Shown here one piece after another: positions 1,901 through 61,524 of a stretch of 64,000 nucleotides of DNA. The stretch is taken from the sequence record EU863408, one strand, 5' to 3'. This DNA is from Escherichia phage JSE. The notes beneath the pieces were generated by a model that did no database searches, had not been told where the DNA came from, and worked only from the letters and a program-made list of their open reading frames with translations. Made by a program: the position numbers and the translations under genes. How positions within the stretch are numbered: position 1 is the stretch's first letter; each line of letters opens with the position of its first letter.

Positions 1901-3043
1901 TTAACTATTGATCATATCAATGACGTTTTGTAGCTCTGATATGGATAGCGTTTCTGTATATCCATCTGGCATATCTTCTTTACTAACATAGAAACCTTTA
2001 TACTTTTTCTTTATTGCACATTCCATAGAAAGAGCATCATCACCGTTATCGTATTTTTTATAAAATGTCAACTCATGACGAAATATAGATTTTGAAGATT
2101 GGTTTTGTATTCTTTTTATTAATCTGTTGTTGGTTATACCAAATTTTATAGCAACCGCAACATCTTCTTTGTATAAAGTTTGTACATAAATGTATGCAGG
2201 TTTATTCCTCTTAAATCCATGATTGCTACACATAGGGCAACCGCTATTTTTTGATACGTAGTCTCCTAAGTTTGGCGTAAATTCATGTCCGCTACTACAA
2301 CGCATTACCAATTTTGTTTTTAGCATTCCTCTATACTCACCGCCAACAAAATCAACAAATGTATCACCTTTATCAATCGCCTTATCTGTTATTTCCTTTA
2401 CTACTTGCTCAGTTGACTTCTTGTTTTTACCTGAACATAGTTTACATCTAGATCCATTAACTAAAAACGAGTGACCGGATGCAGTATATTCATGTCCATT
2501 AGGGCATTTAACTAAGATATTTCTTTCATAAAAATCTTTATAATCAGACACATAGCCAATGACTTCGTGGTCTTTTTGGTTATTCCTCATCTCTGTTAGC
2601 AACTCTTCGCTATTCCAGCGTTTACCCTTAACGCAGAGACAACCATGACCTTGATAAAGATATATAAATTTCTTAGTAAAGTTTTTGTTGCAATCAGGAC
2701 AATGCATTAGTAATTCTGTCATTTGACCTGTATATCCTTTAGGAATATCGATCAATGTGTATTTTCCGCATATTGTCTTTAATGCATCATCTATTCTTTC
2801 TTTGGTCCAGCGTAAGCGACCAGTGCATTCATGACATTTTACACCCAGTCTAAGAGTATCTAAACTAAATATAGTTGACGTATGTCCTTTATCACATTTT
2901 AACTTAAATCTAGTATCCTTTGCGTTGGTGTATTCTCCGACTAGACCATACCATTCATAACAACATGGGATATGTTCTTTTACCTTCTCTAGATATACAC
3001 CGAACGGTCTAGGAACTGAATTGGGTTTTCTTTCTTTAGTCAT
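1901..3043 (-). CDS. Zn-ribbon repeat protein with C-terminal T5orf172 / GIY-YIG-like domain
   Basis: 380 aa; four repeats of C-x2-GH...C-x-x-C; C-terminus PAYIYVQ...AIKFGITNNRLIKR resembles the T5orf172 motif. Confidence 0.5.
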   Translation of the reverse strand: MTKERKPNSVPRPFGVYLEKVKEHIPCCYEWYGLVGEYTNAKDTRFKLKCDKGHTSTIFSLDTLRLGVKCHECTGRLRWTKERIDDALKTICGKYTLIDIPKGYTGQMTELLMHCPDCNKNFTKKFIYLYQGHGCLCVKGKRWNSEELLTEMRNNQKDHEVIGYVSDYKDFYERNILVKCPNGHEYTASGHSFLVNGSRCKLCSGKNKKSTEQVVKEITDKAIDKGDTFVDFVGGEYRGMLKTKLVMRCSSGHEFTPNLGDYVSKNSGCPMCSNHGFKRNKPAYIYVQTLYKEDVAVAIKFGITNNRLIKRIQNQSSKSIFRHELTFYKKYDNGDDALSMECAIKKKYKGFYVSKEDMPDGYTETLSISELQNVIDMINS

Positions 3044-3099: not shown

Positions 3100-3846
3100 T
3101 TAAAACAATTTCCACACCTTACGAGCATCATATTTCTTGTCTTTGCTCATAAACTGGTAGGTCGGAAGATACACAACCGTGCTCCAATCTTTTGGTGCGA
3201 TCTCAATCAGTTTTGTTTGGATGTGTCCAGGCAAATATGCTTTGATCATGTGGTCTGCGCCTCTCATACCTTTAACATCACTCCATTTAATTTTTAAACG
3301 AGTTTTATTACTAAGAGTAGGTGTACTCGCGTATTGTCGCAACAACGCTTCTAAGAACTGCTGGCGAGCTTTAGGTGGCGCATAGTGCAAGTTCAAACCT
3401 AGCATAATCTCGTTTCCCGCTTTAGATGTACCAAATCCTAGACAGATAATCAAGGGGTATCGGTCAAAGAATGGCAAAGAATCCCGATATTTTGGGTTAT
3501 ACGCATAAGTATAGATCCGTCCCACTTGTGGTTTTACTACCTGATGACCTTTTACACCATCCTTGATGGTCTTCATAAACCACTCCTGTGATTTTTCTTT
3601 AGGACGACTCTTTGATACAGCACGCATAGACGCACGAAAATCATTAATCATCATCATTGCGCGTTGCTGCTTATTGAGACCCTTTGCACCTTTCCCTTTT
3701 AGTTTTTCAACTTCTATTGCTGTTTTAATTTCGCTGGCATAACGAGACATACTTTTAGTGAAAGTCGCATAGGCTATTCCCTTAGAATCTGCAAATGCTT
3801 TAGCTGTCATGCCTTTGGCTTTTGCTTTCGCAAATTCTACACCCAA
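3100..3846 (-). CDS. 2: DNA end protector protein (gp2-like)
   Basis: 248 aa basic protein; position between 3 and 4. Confidence 0.75.
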   Translation of the reverse strand: MGVEFAKAKAKGMTAKAFADSKGIAYATFTKSMSRYASEIKTAIEVEKLKGKGAKGLNKQQRAMMMINDFRASMRAVSKSRPKEKSQEWFMKTIKDGVKGHQVVKPQVGRIYTYAYNPKYRDSLPFFDRYPLIICLGFGTSKAGNEIMLGLNLHYAPPKARQQFLEALLRQYASTPTLSNKTRLKIKWSDVKGMRGADHMIKAYLPGHIQTKLIEIAPKDWSTVVYLPTYQFMSKDKKYDARKVWKLF

Positions 3847-3933
3847 TTCGACCCACTGTTTAGACTTTCGTTTTTGGGGTAGACGGCTTTTCGTCTTCTG
3901 TGATTATTTCAAATACGCTCATAATATTATCCT

Positions 3934-13778: not shown

Positions 13779-14036
13779 ATGGCACGTCGTAAATTTACAG
13801 ATAATTGTGAAGCAATTCAGGTATCCCCTTGCGGTTGGGATGTGATCGCGAACGGTGAAAAGATCGGCGAGATCATCGATCATACTCATTCATCACTAGC
13901 CGATTACACCGATGAACTATGGGAGGGTATCAACTTCATGAATGACACTAAACGATTCAAGACTATCGACGAAGCTATCTATTTTGTGTATAATCCAACT
14001 TTCGGTATGTGGGGAACTAGAAAATGGCACGCGTAA
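13779..14036 (+). CDS. hypothetical protein (cassette gene 1)
   Basis: 85 aa; GGAGG 7 nt before ATG. Confidence 0.5.
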   Translation: MARRKFTDNCEAIQVSPCGWDVIANGEKIGEIIDHTHSSLADYTDELWEGINFMNDTKRFKTIDEAIYFVYNPTFGMWGTRKWHA

Positions 14037-23550: not shown

Positions 23551-24306
23551 ATGAAAAACTATTATCTATACGAAATAAAGAACAATATAAATGGTAAGAT
23601 ATATGTTGGCATTCGTGGGTATGATGGTGACATAAGTCAAGATCCTTATATGGGTAGTGGATTGACTCTTAAGAGGTCTATTAAAAAGAACGGGATAGAA
23701 AACTTCACAAAAACAATTCTCAAAACGTTTGACTCATGGAAAGAGGCAAGGAAAGCAGAAAGAGAAATAGTTACAGAGGAATTTGTAAAAAGAGAAGATA
23801 CCTATAATGTTTCGGTTGGTGGACAAGGTGGAAATACTCACGCTGGGATGAGCGAAGAACGAAGAAAACTTGCAAGCGAAAGACACGCAGAAGCAAACCG
23901 AAATAGAGTATGGAAGCAAGAATCTAGAGATAAGGTTAGCGCAAGATTCAAAGGTCATAAGCTATCACAGAAGCAGATAGACGCGCTAAAGAAGGCAAAC
24001 ACAGGAAGAAAGTTCACAGAAGAACACAAGTTCAAAATAGGTAAAACGTGGCGAGGAAAGAAACGACCAGATATAGGAGAGAAGGTTGCGGCAAAATTAA
24101 CAGGGAGAAAACTACCCCCAGAACATGTGGCAGCAATAACGCAAAATACACCGAGAGGAAAACAACACTTTAGGGCAAAAAGATTCTTCATCGACGATAT
24201 GGAATTTTATATTTTGAGTGATGCAGCTAAAATGTTTGGTATAAGTTATAAAACGGTTAAAGCTAGACTTCTCTCAGATAAGTTTCCTACATGGAGATAT
24301 GAATAA
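23551..24306 (+). mobile_element. free-standing GIY-YIG homing endonuclease (Seg-like) between genes 14 and 15
   Basis: 251 aa; N-terminal YYLYEIKNNINGKIYVGIRG with downstream R, E and N; basic repeats HKLSQKQIDALKKANTGRKFTEEHKFKIGK; C-terminal HTH-like segment. Confidence 0.75.
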
Positions 24307-44357: not shown

Positions 44358-44756
44358 TCACTTTGCAAGTCTTATGCGTAGTTGTTCAAGATCATCTGGG
44401 TTATCTATTACTGAAAAGTAGATTGATACTATGATTGAGTTATCGTCGTACTGCGGAGTTACTTCTACTGTCAGGTTTCGGACCCGTGGTTCATAGTTTC
44501 GGATCGCCTCATTGATGTTTTTTGATAAGGTATCCACTGTCAGTGGGTTCATGTTCTCAAACAGTGATTTATTGAGATCGCATCCAAACAGTGGATCAAA
44601 TGGACGAGATCCCTTGCGAGTAGTCACGATCAGTAGAATAGAATCTTTAACCGCTTTAATCCCTATGTTCTTTTTAACGTCGTTATTCCACGATCTGGAT
44701 ATATTGAGATCCAAATCAGTATACATCTGATTAATAGTTGCCATGTTATACCTCAA
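44358..44756 (-). CDS. 25: baseplate wedge protein gp25-like
   Basis: 132 aa; TTRKGSRPFDP.FGCDL and YEPR...FSVIDNPDD match recalled T4 gp25. Confidence 0.9.
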   Translation of the reverse strand: MRYNMATINQMYTDLDLNISRSWNNDVKKNIGIKAVKDSILLIVTTRKGSRPFDPLFGCDLNKSLFENMNPLTVDTLSKNINEAIRNYEPRVRNLTVEVTPQYDDNSIIVSIYFSVIDNPDDLEQLRIRLAK

Positions 44757-45382
44757 AGAATTTTAAGGAAACTGGATAGACCTGATAATGAATATACACC
44801 AGATTCCCCGCATTCGCACTTGATCGGTACTGCCAGCGTGATTTGATTTCTTGTTAGCTCGTCGATCACTTCTTCCACTTTATCCGTGGTAAGCATATCC
44901 AGCACGCGGTCAAAGTCCTGTGCGTTCAGGTCGTCTATATTGAATTGCTGATCGCCGATCACGATATATTCGATACATGCAATTACCATCTGCATAATAT
45001 CAACATCTTCTGTAAACTTAGGTTGACGAAACTTGATTTTTACTTGTCCTAAGTCCAGAATATACGGTTCAACTTCTGGTATCTGTGTGCGTGAAACATC
45101 AAGAGAGTATACTTTCTCTTTATTGCATACACCACACACCCAAGTAGCATCAATTTTCATCTTATTGAGGCTGTGACACCATAAGAGAAGAAAAATATAT
45201 TCTGCTTCGCATTTCTCTAGCTCTAATGCATTGATCCCCGTACATTCATGTATGATCTCTATAACAACCTCTGACAGCTTGCCAGTCTCTTTTGCTGCTA
45301 CCAGTTTTTGAAATTCGCCGAAGGTGAAAGCACGGGCGTGTATCAACTTTTCGCCTAATTGGATCTTGAAAAAGTATTGCAT
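44753..45382 (-). CDS. 26: baseplate hub protein gp26-like
   Basis: 209 aa; position. Confidence 0.75.
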   Translation of the reverse strand: MQYFFKIQLGEKLIHARAFTFGEFQKLVAAKETGKLSEVVIEIIHECTGINALELEKCEAEYIFLLLWCHSLNKMKIDATWVCGVCNKEKVYSLDVSRTQIPEVEPYILDLGQVKIKFRQPKFTEDVDIMQMVIACIEYIVIGDQQFNIDDLNAQDFDRVLDMLTTDKVEEVIDELTRNQITLAVPIKCECGESGVYSLSGLSSFLKIL

Positions 45383-45452: not shown

Positions 45453-46223
45453 ATGAATATTATCCGAATAAAACTGCCGGAAGGTGTGCAGAGATTTAAA
45501 CCATTCACGGTAAAAGATTATAGAGATTTCCTTCTGGTGTCAACTGAAATTAAGATGAATCCAGAAGAAGAACAAACGATTCTGGATGAGCTATTAGAAG
45601 AAATATATCCAGAAGTAGATCCGGCATTTCGTGAATATATTTTCCTGAATGTCTTTACTAGCTCAATTGGTAAAACAAAGATACCGCTTTGTTTTACTTG
45701 CCCGACTTGCAACAAAGAAAGAAAAATGTTGCTTAACTTACAGGTTGAAGCACTAAAACCAATCGTTCTAGAGGCCGCAGGGCTTAAAATAACTTTCCGG
45801 TATGTTAAACCATCAACCGACTATGCAAAAACGTTTCTGGATGCGATAGAGCGTGTATCTGATGGTATTAATGATTATCTATGGACTGAATTACCGGAAG
45901 AAGTTAGAGAACAGGTTATCGATTCAATCTCATTTGCTGAATTTGAAGAAGTTGTTAAGCAGATGCACACAATCAAGATCGAACAAAAGATATCTTGTTG
46001 TGAAAGTCATGACCTGAAATACATAGGTCTTCTTCCATTATTCAAATTGTTGTTGAATCCAGATGAGTTATTCATCTTTTATCGAATAAACCATCTATTG
46101 GCAAAATCAAATTATTCTATCAGTGATCTTATGGATATGTTACCGATTGAGAGAAACATTGCACTGACACTGGTCGAGAAAGACGTAAAAGAGGCAAATA
46201 ATGCAAAGAACGGGGTTTCCTAA
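45453..46223 (+). CDS. 51: baseplate hub assembly protein gp51-like
   Basis: 256 aa; position. Confidence 0.75.
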   Translation: MNIIRIKLPEGVQRFKPFTVKDYRDFLLVSTEIKMNPEEEQTILDELLEEIYPEVDPAFREYIFLNVFTSSIGKTKIPLCFTCPTCNKERKMLLNLQVEALKPIVLEAAGLKITFRYVKPSTDYAKTFLDAIERVSDGINDYLWTELPEEVREQVIDSISFAEFEEVVKQMHTIKIEQKISCCESHDLKYIGLLPLFKLLLNPDELFIFYRINHLLAKSNYSISDLMDMLPIERNIALTLVEKDVKEANNAKNGVS

Positions 46224-47311
46224 TGTCTCAATAAAACTTTATCAGGATTATGAGGCATTTCTAAATCATCGCTTTATAGAGTTGGGTGCTACCTTTGTTA
46301 CAATGACTCTGCGTGATTCGATTCGTGGGGTGAATGAAGGATTGTTGCAATTCTATGATAATAAGGCGATGCATACAAAATTAAACGGGAGAGAGATCAT
46401 TCAGATTTCGCTATCCACTGCTAATACAGATGAAGTGTTTAACCGAATCTATGGGATCTCTCATAGTAATGTAACAATTGACCAAAAATCCGACAACATT
46501 TTAACATTCCAGTTAAAGAGCTATCACGAAACACTAAACCTTAAATTTTCTCGCTCATTGACAAATAACGCGGTTAATAACGTAACTAGCATGATTGATG
46601 CCATCTATAAGGAAGTTCCTTTATGGAAACCTACTATAAAGGGTGATAACGTTGTTATTCCTCGTTGTCCGTGGGTTAGTACCATAAATGACTATATGGA
46701 TTTTGTTAGGGCATACGGGCAAAGCGTAGAAACCGAGTCTTTCGTGTATTGCTGGGAAGATTTTGATGGTATAACGATTGCTGGATACGATACAATATTA
46801 AAAAATGAGCCAATACCAGCTATAATCTGTGAGCCTAGACTCATGGGGCAATTTATTGATATGTCGCCTAATCTGATGGTTTTTAATTTTGAGTGGCAGA
46901 CTAAGAGCAATGCTAAAGTTAAAAAATTCATTTAGCAATGTGACATACACCACTATTGATTTTGTTACTAAGCAGTATAATAAAATTATTGTTGGTAATG
47001 GGGATAATATTGCACACTTTGCTCATGGTGGCGCTTATGGCGATTTAACTTATAAGAATGCGTTTTTGGAAGGTTCTAAACTTGCCACAATAGAACAATA
47101 TGATTCATATGCTACCGCCGTGTGTCACGGTAATTTTTCGTTGCGCCCCGGTATGGTTATTCGATTCTTTGATGAGAAGCAACAAGCACGCAATGATTTT
47201 ATTGTTGACGAAGTGGTGCATGAAATTAGCCGAGAGCAATCATTAACTCACCTGTATATGATCGGTAACAGCGAAGAATTACAGGAAGTCAAATTTGAAG
47301 GTAAGATATAA
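46201..47311 (+). CDS. 27: baseplate hub protein gp27-like, interrupted by a 1-nt frameshift at an A6 run (46921-46926)
   Basis: ORFs 46201-46935 and 46889-47311 together align to recalled T4 gp27; removing one A gives ...WQTKSNAKVKNSFSNVTYTTIDF... Confidence 0.7.
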
Positions 47312-47829
47312 TGACAGAAACTAAACCTATGTTAAAATTTGTTGTTCCTGTAAAAAAATTAGAGATAAACGGGAAACATATTAAGATCCCAAAAATGGGG
47401 ATTAAGCAACATCGATTATTAAAAGATGTTCGTAGCTGTGATGAAACATTAAAGATTCTTCTTGATTCAATCTGTCCTGGGTTAAACGCAGCCGAGTCTG
47501 AGTTGGTTATGCTTAACCTTTGTGCGTTTAATGGTAAGTGTCTGGAAGAAAAAGATGGTCTTAAGTTGTCTGATGTATATATTTGTACAGAGACTGAATT
47601 TACTTTAAATGGTAAAGTCTTTAAATTTAAAAATCCAATGTATACTTCTGACCCCATTATCGATGACGCTGATTTCTTGAGTCATCATTATCACGATCCT
47701 AGCGTAGACTTCCATGATTTCCCAGCTTTTATTATGGATTGGGCTACAGGATTAAGAAAAACTATTGCACTGGATACACCGGAAGGTACTATCTATGGTG
47801 GAATTAACATATTGGATCGCCTATCATGA
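47311..47829 (+). CDS. 28: baseplate hub distal protein gp28-like
   Basis: 172 aa; position. Confidence 0.75.
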   Translation: MTETKPMLKFVVPVKKLEINGKHIKIPKMGIKQHRLLKDVRSCDETLKILLDSICPGLNAAESELVMLNLCAFNGKCLEEKDGLKLSDVYICTETEFTLNGKVFKFKNPMYTSDPIIDDADFLSHHYHDPSVDFHDFPAFIMDWATGLRKTIALDTPEGTIYGGINILDRLS

Positions 47830-58869: not shown

Positions 58870-59177
58870 TCATTTAGACAAATAATCATTCAGTGCAATC
58901 CGGTCGGCGTATGCTGGTGTTACGTCAATCGCAATCACTTTAACGCGTGCTTTCTTGCGACCTGGGTTTTCTCGTAACCAGTGCTCATGACCGTGAACAT
59001 TTTATACTGCGATGCTTCTTCGAAAGTACGGATCGGACAAGGGTAATCAGCGTAAAGGATCTCTAGGTCTTCGGTGATGTAAAAATATACATCATAATTA
59101 CTGTTCTCTAGTTTAAGCAGAGACTTTCGGAACATTGGGAGATTTTCGCGGGTAAATTCAAAGATATTATCTTTCAT
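58870..59177 (-). CDS. HxHW-family small protein, frameshifted at a 4-nt homopolymer (59000-59003)
   Basis: N-part in ORF 58935-59177; C-part (NVHGHEHW...VKVIAIDVTPAYAD...) in another frame; adding one A joins them. Confidence 0.4.
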
Positions 59178-61229: not shown

Positions 61230-61524
61230 TTATAATGCTTTATATGCGTATTTCATAAATTTGTCTGCCACTTCATTGGCATGTTCAGATTCTACGCCTG
61301 ATTCGAGAACAATAGCTAGGTCGGTTTCGTCATTCCCGCCGTACCAATGATTTGATGTTCGATTTTTTTCAATTGGAAATTGGTCACTTTTATCTGTGCG
61401 ACAAAATACATCTAAATGCTCATCGATGTAAAAGATCCAATCTTCATAAAGAATAACGGGTATTAGCAAGATTTTTATTGCCTTCAACGAAAGGTTCGGC
61501 TACAAACAAATTAGTATGTTCCAT
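61230..61524 (-). CDS. hypothetical protein, frameshifted at a 5-nt homopolymer (61472-61476)
   Basis: ATG at 61522-61524 with GAGGA opens a 26-codon frame; removing one T joins it to ORF 61230-61487. Confidence 0.35.

What the first reader, a model, noticed from the sequence alone, without database searches (positions are those of the whole stretch)
46921..46926. Essential baseplate hub gene 27 is split by a frameshift in an A6 run
ORF 46201-46935 ends ...WQTKSNAKVKKFI* and ORF 46889-47311 continues the gp27 homology in another frame. Removing one A from the A6 run at 46921-46926 yields one continuous gp27 of about 370 aa. Because gp27 is needed for baseplate assembly, a homopolymer sequencing error is the most likely explanation; programmed or transcriptional slippage is the alternative.
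Basis: seen in the sequence. Interest (0 to 1): 0.5.

Follow-up and report, generated by a model that had tools for sequence, protein, structure and literature searches.

The report
Probable sequencing error splitting gp27
The baseplate hub gene 27 of this RB49-like coliphage (phage JSE) is cut in two by one extra A that no other sequenced relative carries, so it is almost certainly a base-calling error in the deposited genome and not a biological mechanism.

Summary
Gene 27 is split at an A6 run (46921-46926) into ORF 46201-46935 (244 aa) and ORF 46889-47311, which lies in the +1 frame. Pfam places the two ORFs on adjacent parts of the same gp27 domain model. Deleting one A gives a 369-aa protein that aligns without gaps to solved T4 gp27.

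The window is Escherichia phage JSE, a Krischvirus. Its GenBank record already lists the two pieces as two "gp27" CDSs. All 53 public Krischvirus genomes and two IMG/VR contigs have A5 and an intact 369-aa gene; A6 was found nowhere else.

The same 64 kb holds three more single-base frameshifts in conserved genes: gene 2 and the homologues of RB49p197 and RB49p206. These are also absent from all or nearly all relatives. The identical test finds none in Phi1 or KFS-EC.

JSE is a viable phage and gp27 is essential, so a cluster of record-specific frameshifts points to sequencing or assembly error (about 0.8). A real A5-to-A6 mutation rescued by rare +1 slippage is possible (about 0.12). An evolved programmed frameshift is effectively excluded by the lack of conservation. 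Interest is low.

The parts
46201..46935 (+). 5' piece of gene 27 (244 aa). It holds gp27 domain 1 and the first ~40 positions of domain 2, and ends at a TAG created by the frameshift.
   Evidence: ORF list. Pfam PF09097 E 1.2e-55 and PF09096 positions 2-41. Exact sequence equals ACL78132.1 / YP_002922255.1, 'gp27 baseplate hub subunit [Escherichia phage JSE]'.
46921..46926 (+). A6 homopolymer run. It has one A more than the A5 found in every relative, and it is the site of the frame break.
   Evidence: Sequence. Alignment with ELT4 and RB49 shows a single-column gap in the A run. In all 53 relatives the 130- or 127-nt query matches a stretch one base shorter.
46889..47311 (+). 3' piece of gene 27 in the +1 frame. 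True gp27 homology starts at codon AAT 46925-46927. The depositors annotated a 133-aa CDS from ATG 46910.
   Evidence: ORF list. Pfam PF09096 positions 44-164, E 1.4e-27. P0007 = ACL78133.1, 'gp27 baseplate hub subunit [phage JSE]', 133 aa.
45453..46223 (+). Gene 51 (baseplate hub assembly protein), the upstream neighbour. It overlaps the gene 27 start by 23 nt, as in RB49.
   Evidence: Pfam PF12322 E 2e-43. RB49 annotation. tblastn 99.6% identity.
47311..47829 (+). Gene 28 (hub distal subunit), the downstream neighbour. Its ATG overlaps the gene 27 stop (ATAATG), so the hub operon is otherwise intact.
   Evidence: Pfam PF11110 E 8.8e-27. tblastn 100% identity to RB49 gp28.

Best explanation
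[quoted passage not shown] The real phage carries an ordinary uninterrupted gene 27 of 1110 nt. That gene encodes a 369-aa gp27, the trimeric baseplate hub protein that seats the gp5 spike, translated conventionally. Nothing special happens at this site.

Shown: the identity of the gene, the exact site and size of the lesion, its absence from all relatives, and the excess of frameshifts specific to this record. Inferred: that the cause is base-calling or assembly and not a mutation.
For: 1. All 53 Krischvirus records matching a 130-nt query around the site are one base shorter there. The alignment puts the single gap in the A run. Their gene 27 is annotated as one 1110-nt CDS.
2. An exact-pattern scan finds A6 in no IMG/VR contig. 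The same pattern allowing A5 or A6 finds two, both A5.
3. The 244-aa product exists in the 15-billion-protein collection only as the phage JSE entry, on one contig of 166,418 bp. Nearly all of the other cluster members listed are 369 aa.
4. tblastn of RB49 proteins finds four frame-split conserved genes in the window: g2, g27, p197 and p206. Each lesion is absent from all or nearly all relatives: 56 of 57 records for g2, all but a handful of 53 for p197, and 37 of 37 for p206.
5. The same test gives zero frame-split genes in Phi1 and KFS-EC.
6. In the four-genome comparison, the private indels not divisible by 3 in Phi1 and KFS-EC all fall between their annotated genes. RB49's do too, apart from an 11-nt deletion in a small ORF and one base at the inh stop codon. 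Three of the window's ten hit conserved CDSs (with the annotation).
7. Downstream of the break the gene is fully open, with only two conservative substitutions relative to RB49, so there is no decay.
8. From established knowledge: T4 gene 27 mutants are lethal because no hub forms, yet JSE is a propagated, viable phage.
Against: No raw reads or quality values are available, so the error is inferred, not seen. I could not read the original JSE paper to confirm the sequencing chemistry. Only two of the four frameshifts in conserved genes (A5 to A6, T5 to T4) are in runs of four or more bases. The gene 2 lesion is a T inserted next to, not inside, a run, so the errors are not all of the classic homopolymer type. 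A5-to-A6 is also exactly what replication slippage (Streisinger mechanism) would produce in a real genome.
Confidence: 0.8

Rival explanations
1. The A6 is a genuine A5-to-A6 replication-slippage mutation in the sequenced JSE stock. The phage survives because a small fraction of expression restores the frame. One route is tRNA-Lys slipping +1 from AAA (46921-46923) to AAA (46922-46924), so the next codon read is AAT. The other is RNA polymerase dropping one A. Either route regenerates the exact wild-type protein (...KVKNSFSN...), and only three gp27 copies are needed per virion.
For: The sequence allows perfect re-pairing of tRNA-Lys in the +1 frame, and the slipped product equals the RB49 protein across the junction (my reading of the codons). 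Runs of A are known sites of polymerase and ribosome slippage (PMC1088944). The downstream ORF is intact.
Against: There is no slow or stop codon in the A site at the slip position and no Shine-Dalgarno-like element just upstream, so efficiency should be very low. Functional transcriptional slippage described in bacteria involves runs of about nine A or T (PMC1088944); A6 is short. A strongly deleterious allele should not be the consensus of a lytic stock. Three more frameshifts of the same kind in the same 64 kb, one of them in gene 2, are far better explained by a common technical cause.
Confidence: 0.12
2. An evolved programmed +1 ribosomal frameshift or programmed transcriptional slippage makes two gp27 forms, a 244-aa short form and a full-length form, in a regulated ratio.
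For: Two overlapping ORFs meet at a slippery homopolymer with a stop codon three codons downstream. Programmed frameshifts do exist in phage structural genes (general knowledge: lambda G/GT, Listeria phage PSA).
Against: Conservation is zero: 53 of 53 relatives at 93-99% nucleotide identity have an in-frame A5 with otherwise almost identical flanks. No stimulatory element differs between JSE and these relatives. The only other changes within 130 nt are two synonymous substitutions. The 244-aa product ends inside a domain (PF09096 position 41 of 173), so it is not a plausible functional isoform.
Confidence: 0.02
3. Gene 27 is genuinely split and the two polypeptides (244 aa, plus 133 aa from ATG 46910) assemble non-covalently into a working hub subunit.
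For: An ATG at 46910 is preceded by AAGAG, and the depositors annotated that 133-aa CDS.
Against: The AAGAG lies only 2 nt from the ATG, and the same sequence sits inside the intact gene of all relatives, so it is not an evolved start. The break falls inside a domain. No relative has a split gene.
Confidence: 0.03

Closest known systems
Gene 27 of Escherichia phage RB49 (NP_891748.1, 369 aa) and other Krischvirus gp27
   Same: Same gene in the same operon position (51-27-28-29-48-54). It is about 98.5-99.4% identical in DNA over 1.2 kb, and the protein is identical across the junction once one A is removed.
   Different: The window has A6 where all of them have A5, which splits the CDS into 244-aa and 133/140-aa pieces.
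T4 gp27 baseplate hub protein (PDB 1K28 chain D) and the 'putative baseplate hub subunit' of PDB 9f4a
   Same: The repaired protein aligns end to end without gaps: residues 1-363 to 1K28_D, E 1.6e-98, and residues 2-363 to 9f4a_BE, E 4.6e-110. Both Pfam gp27 domains are present.
   Different: It is a diverged orthologue, 369 aa against 391 aa in T4. As deposited, the reading frame is broken.
Programmed frameshifts and slippage in bacterial and phage genes (E. coli prfB +1, dnaX, Thermus dnaX A9, Shigella mxiE T9, IS elements)
   Same: A homopolymer lies at the junction of two overlapping ORFs, and a one-base shift is needed to make the full-length product.
   Different: The site is not conserved in any relative. 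The run is shorter than the runs of nine used for transcriptional slippage (PMC1088944). There is no SD-like stimulator or A-site stop at the slip codon. The short product is not a sensible protein.

Membership tests
gp27 baseplate hub protein (Pfam PF09097 + PF09096; T4 gp27) | Presence of both gp27 domain models in order | tested here: met
   PF09097 positions 1-195 of 196 (E 1.2e-55). PF09096 positions 2-41 are in ORF1 and 44-164 in ORF2 (E 1.4e-27).
gp27 baseplate hub protein (Pfam PF09097 + PF09096; T4 gp27) | Colinear full-length similarity to a structurally solved gp27 | tested here: met
   The repaired 369-aa protein matches 1K28_D over residues 1-363 (E 1.6e-98) and 9f4a_BE over residues 2-363 (E 4.6e-110). 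The 9f4a_BE alignment was displayed and has no gap at the junction.
gp27 baseplate hub protein (Pfam PF09097 + PF09096; T4 gp27) | Position in the hub gene cluster (26 / 51-27-28-29-48-54) | tested here: met
   tblastn of RB49 proteins gives g26, g51, g27, g28, g29, g48 and g54 in the same order and strands. Pfam confirms gp26/gp51 and gp28.
gp27 baseplate hub protein (Pfam PF09097 + PF09096; T4 gp27) | A single uninterrupted reading frame | tested here: not met
   As deposited, the frame is broken at 46921-46926. It is intact in 53 of 53 relatives.
Programmed ribosomal frameshift / programmed transcriptional slippage site | Conservation of the out-of-frame ORF arrangement and slippery site among relatives | tested here: not met
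   No relative among 53 genomes and 2 IMG/VR contigs has the A6 or a split gene.
Programmed ribosomal frameshift / programmed transcriptional slippage site | Recognised stimulators: an SD-like element or an A-site stop/rare codon for +1, or a run of about nine or more A/T for transcriptional slippage | tested here: not met
   Read directly from the sequence. The A-site codon at the slip position is AAA, the nearest purine-rich stretch (TAAGAG) is about 15 nt upstream, and the run is 6 nt. Run lengths used in known cases come from PMC1088944.
Programmed ribosomal frameshift / programmed transcriptional slippage site | Both products detected experimentally | not testable with these tools
   This needs virion or infected-cell proteomics, or RNA sequencing.
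Sequencing / assembly artefact | Lesion unique to one record, in a homopolymer, in an essential gene of a viable organism | tested here: met
   The essentiality of gp27 comes from T4 genetics (established knowledge).
Sequencing / assembly artefact | Excess of similar record-specific frameshifts elsewhere in the same record compared with sister genomes | tested here: met
   Four frame-split conserved genes in the window against zero in Phi1 and zero in KFS-EC. Each is absent from all or nearly all relatives.
Sequencing / assembly artefact | Raw reads disagree with, or are ambiguous about, the consensus at the site | not testable with these tools
   No reads are available, and the original paper is not held.

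The most novel reading that the evidence does not exclude
The A6 is real in the JSE stock. An essential baseplate hub gene is then kept alive solely by low-level +1 slippage on A AAA AAU, ribosomal or transcriptional, which regenerates the exact wild-type protein. The phage tolerates this because a virion needs only three gp27 copies. That would be a natural example of a lethal frameshift phenotypically suppressed in a lytic phage used for therapy trials.
Probability: 0.1. Interest if true: 0.45.

Novelty: not a real feature. Interest (0 to 1): 0.08.

Why it matters
The main value is curation. The JSE reference record (NC_012740 / EU863408 lineage) carries gp27 as two CDSs (YP_002922255.1 and YP_002922256.1), and it probably has at least three other spurious frameshifts in this 64-kb stretch. 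These truncated proteins propagate into UniRef and into protein clusters, and they can mislead pangenome or core-gene analyses of Krischvirus.

If the A6 were real, against the odds, it would be a neat case of an essential phage gene rescued by slippage. Nothing in the comparative data suggests that.

Tried and rejected
- I scanned IMG/VR, JGI metagenome contigs and GTDB genome contigs for the A6 variant. None was found. The pattern allowing A5 or A6 also found nothing in the metagenome and genome collections, so those two are uninformative. IMG/VR gave two A5 contigs.
- An exact look-up of the 244-aa product in the gene-position index found nothing. The protein-cluster look-up did identify it as phage JSE.
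- I tried to read the JSE genome paper (Denou et al. 2009, Virology 388:21) for the sequencing method, but it is not held. My recollection that it was a pyrosequencing-era assembly is therefore unverified and is not used as evidence.
- A 236-aa cluster member from a Salmonella assembly (P0012) looked like a possible second truncation. It diverges at a different place (after ...DTILKNE) into unrelated sequence, so it is unrelated to the A run.
- I considered a +1 shift at AUU-UAG (prfB-like) as a rescue route. Re-pairing of tRNA-Ile on UUU is poor and there is no SD element, so I did not pursue it.
- Pfam and PDB sequence matches already settle the identity.

Full report
**What is in the sequence**

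Positions 46921-46926 are AAAAAA, in the context GCT AAA GTT AAA AAA TTC ATT TAG. ORF 46201-46935 (244 aa) ends ...WQTKSNAKVKKFI*. ORF 46889-47311 lies in the +1 frame relative to it.

Pfam places ORF1 on PF09097 (gp27 domain 1, positions 1-195 of 196, E 1.2e-55) and on positions 2-41 of PF09096 (gp27 domain 2). ORF2 falls on positions 44-164 of the same PF09096 model (E 1.4e-27). The two ORFs are therefore consecutive parts of one protein, and the break maps to within two model positions.

The neighbours are gp26 and gp51 (both PF12322) upstream and gp28 (PF11110) downstream. This is the T4-type hub cluster.

**Where the window comes from**

Megablast against 50,697 phage records gives 53 hits, all Krischvirus (RB49-like coliphages), at 98-99.4% identity over 1.2 kb. 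None is identical.

The exact 244-aa product is on record once, as ACL78132.1 / YP_002922255.1, "gp27 baseplate hub subunit [Escherichia phage JSE]", on a contig of 166,418 bp. A 133-aa "gp27 baseplate hub subunit [phage JSE]" (ACL78133.1) is the second piece, starting at ATG 46910. The genome length matches JSE, NC_012740 (PMC2993671).

So the window is phage JSE, and the split is already visible in its GenBank annotation. JSE is described there as a close relative of RB49 that carries more homing endonuclease genes. That fits the extra endonuclease-like ORFs I saw in the window.

**Is the frameshift shared?**

It is not. With a 130-nt query centred on the run, every one of the 53 related records matches over 129 nt (or 126 nt for a 127-nt alignment). 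Each is exactly one base shorter.

Alignment with ELT4 and RB49 puts the single gap in the A run: A5 in the relatives, A6 in the window. The only other differences within 130 nt are synonymous substitutions. In RB49, ELT4, Phi1 and KFS-EC gene 27 is one 1110-nt CDS. The RB49 protein reads ...AKVKNSFSNVTYTT... across the site.

Removing one A from the window gives the same 369-aa protein. It aligns gap-free to T4 gp27 (1K28_D, residues 1-363, E 1.6e-98) and to 9f4a_BE (E 4.6e-110).

An exact scan of IMG/VR for the A6 version finds nothing. A pattern that allows either A5 or A6 finds two contigs, both A5. The metagenome and GTDB genome collections contain neither version, so they say nothing.

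**Is this an isolated lesion or part of a pattern?**

I translated all RB49 CDSs of the syntenic region and ran tblastn against the window. Four conserved genes are split between frames:

| Gene | Position and change |
|---|---|
| Gene 2 | about 3880, +1 T; the first ~14 codons are out of frame |
| Gene 27 | A5 to A6 |
| RB49p197 homologue | about 59004, T5 to T4 |
| RB49p206 homologue | about 61458, GG to GGG |

Short-query searches show that each lesion is essentially confined to the window:

| Lesion | Relatives differing from the window by exactly one base |
|---|---|
| Gene 2 | 56 of 57 records |
| p197 | all but a handful of 53 records; kvi has the same length as the window and four divergent records differ by other amounts |
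| p206 | 37 of 37 records |

As a control, the same protein set run against the syntenic ~65 kb of Phi1 and KFS-EC gives no frame-split gene at all.

In a four-genome comparison the window has 10 private indels whose length is not a multiple of 3. RB49 has 4, Phi1 has 5 and KFS-EC has 3.

- In Phi1 and KFS-EC, all of these fall between annotated genes.
- In RB49 the exceptions are an 11-nt deletion that splits a small ORF and one base at the inh stop codon (annotation).
- In the window, three of the ten fall inside conserved CDSs. The p206 lesion is a fourth; the strict filter missed it.

Intergenic indels are what real evolution leaves behind. Frame-breaking indels in conserved genes, two of which (genes 2 and 27) encode virion proteins, are what errors leave behind.

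**Mechanistic reading**

The shift needed is +1: skip one base, or lose one A from the mRNA.

If tRNA-Lys in the P site slipped from AAA (46921-46923) to AAA (46922-46924), the next codon would be AAT and the wild-type sequence would be restored exactly. Loss of one A during transcription would have the same result. This makes a "leaky" real mutation conceivable.

Several points argue against efficient slippage:

- There is no slow codon or stop in the A site at that step.
- There is no Shine-Dalgarno-like element immediately upstream.
- The run is only six bases, whereas the functional transcriptional slippage sites reviewed in PMC1088944 are runs of nine.
- Most importantly, the arrangement is not conserved in any relative, and conservation is the minimum requirement for a programmed event.

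The 244-aa product ends at position 41 of 173 of a domain model. It would lack most of the second half of gp27, so it is not a credible isoform.

From established T4 knowledge (gene 27 amber mutants make no hub; structure 1K28), a phage without full-length gp27 makes no baseplates. JSE nevertheless plates and was used experimentally.

**Verdict**

| Explanation | Estimated probability |
|---|---|
| Base-calling or assembly error in the JSE record (A5 read as A6), one of several in this stretch | about 0.8 |
| Genuine replication-slippage mutation in the sequenced stock, phenotypically suppressed by rare +1 slippage | about 0.12 |
| Functional split gene | about 0.03 |
| Evolved programmed frameshift | about 0.02 |

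The remainder is unassigned. Only re-sequencing of the stock can close the question.

Novelty is nil. The gene is an ordinary gp27 orthologue and the split is already in the public annotation. Its practical relevance is that the reference record, and the truncated proteins derived from it, should be corrected or flagged.

**What could not be done**

No reads were available. The JSE genome paper is not in the library, so the sequencing chemistry is unknown to me. The rest of the JSE genome lies outside the window, so the error rate is estimated from 64 kb only.

Noticed in passing
window ~3880 (gene 2, minus strand; ORF 3100-3846 from TTG, true start near 3922): Gene 2 (DNA end protector) has a private +1 base (GGGG-T-AGAC against GGGGAGAC). 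This puts its first ~14 codons out of frame with the rest. 56 of 57 related records are one base shorter here. It is probably another error in the JSE record.
   Followed up: partly
window ~59004 (homologue of RB49p197, minus strand, 58873-59177): A private one-base deletion (T5 to T4) splits a conserved 102-aa hypothetical gene into two frames. Almost all of 53 relatives have one base more; phage kvi is the same length as the window over the aligned stretch.
   Followed up: partly
window ~61458 (homologue of RB49p206, minus strand, 61233-61524): A private one-base insertion (GG to GGG) separates the first ~20 codons of a conserved 97-aa hypothetical gene from the rest. All 37 matching relatives are one base shorter.
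   Followed up: partly
window 23551-24306 (+), between genes 14 and 15: This is a free-standing GIY-YIG (seg-like) homing endonuclease gene: I-TevI DNA-binding domain, SegE GIY-YIG and NUMOD3. It is absent from RB49 at this spot. Phi1 and KFS-EC carry homing endonuclease genes between genes 13 and 14 instead.
   Followed up: partly
window 1901-3043 (-), between RB49p130 homologue and gene 2: A 380-aa ORF absent from RB49, with CapR, treble-clef zinc-finger (DUF4379) and weak T5orf172 matches. Phi1 has an annotated 'endonuclease' (phi1p130.1) at the same position. It is probably a mobile endonuclease-type insertion.
   Followed up: partly
window 55358, 55605, 57740, 58460, 61220, 62636, 63030 (+ strand) and 34110 (-): The motif GTCAACAACTTTTT recurs 8 times (0.03 expected by chance). 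Most copies lie in intergenic gaps of the minus-strand early-gene block, and several sit just after a GGGGATC...GATCCCC hairpin. Read on the minus strand it contains GTTGAC, so these look like early promoters (-35 box) next to terminators.
   Followed up: partly
window 44753-45382 (-) and 45453-46223 (+): The divergently transcribed gp26 and gp51 genes are paralogues. Both match Pfam PF12322 (T4_baseplate) at E ~1e-44, and they cross-hit each other at ~25% identity in tblastn.
   Followed up: no
L003 15550 (RB49 record) versus window 13926-13936: The RB49 record lacks 11 nt that are present in the window, Phi1 and KFS-EC. This splits one 258-nt ORF (phi1p140-like) into RB49p140 and RB49p141. 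It is either a lesion specific to the RB49 record or a real deletion.
   Followed up: no
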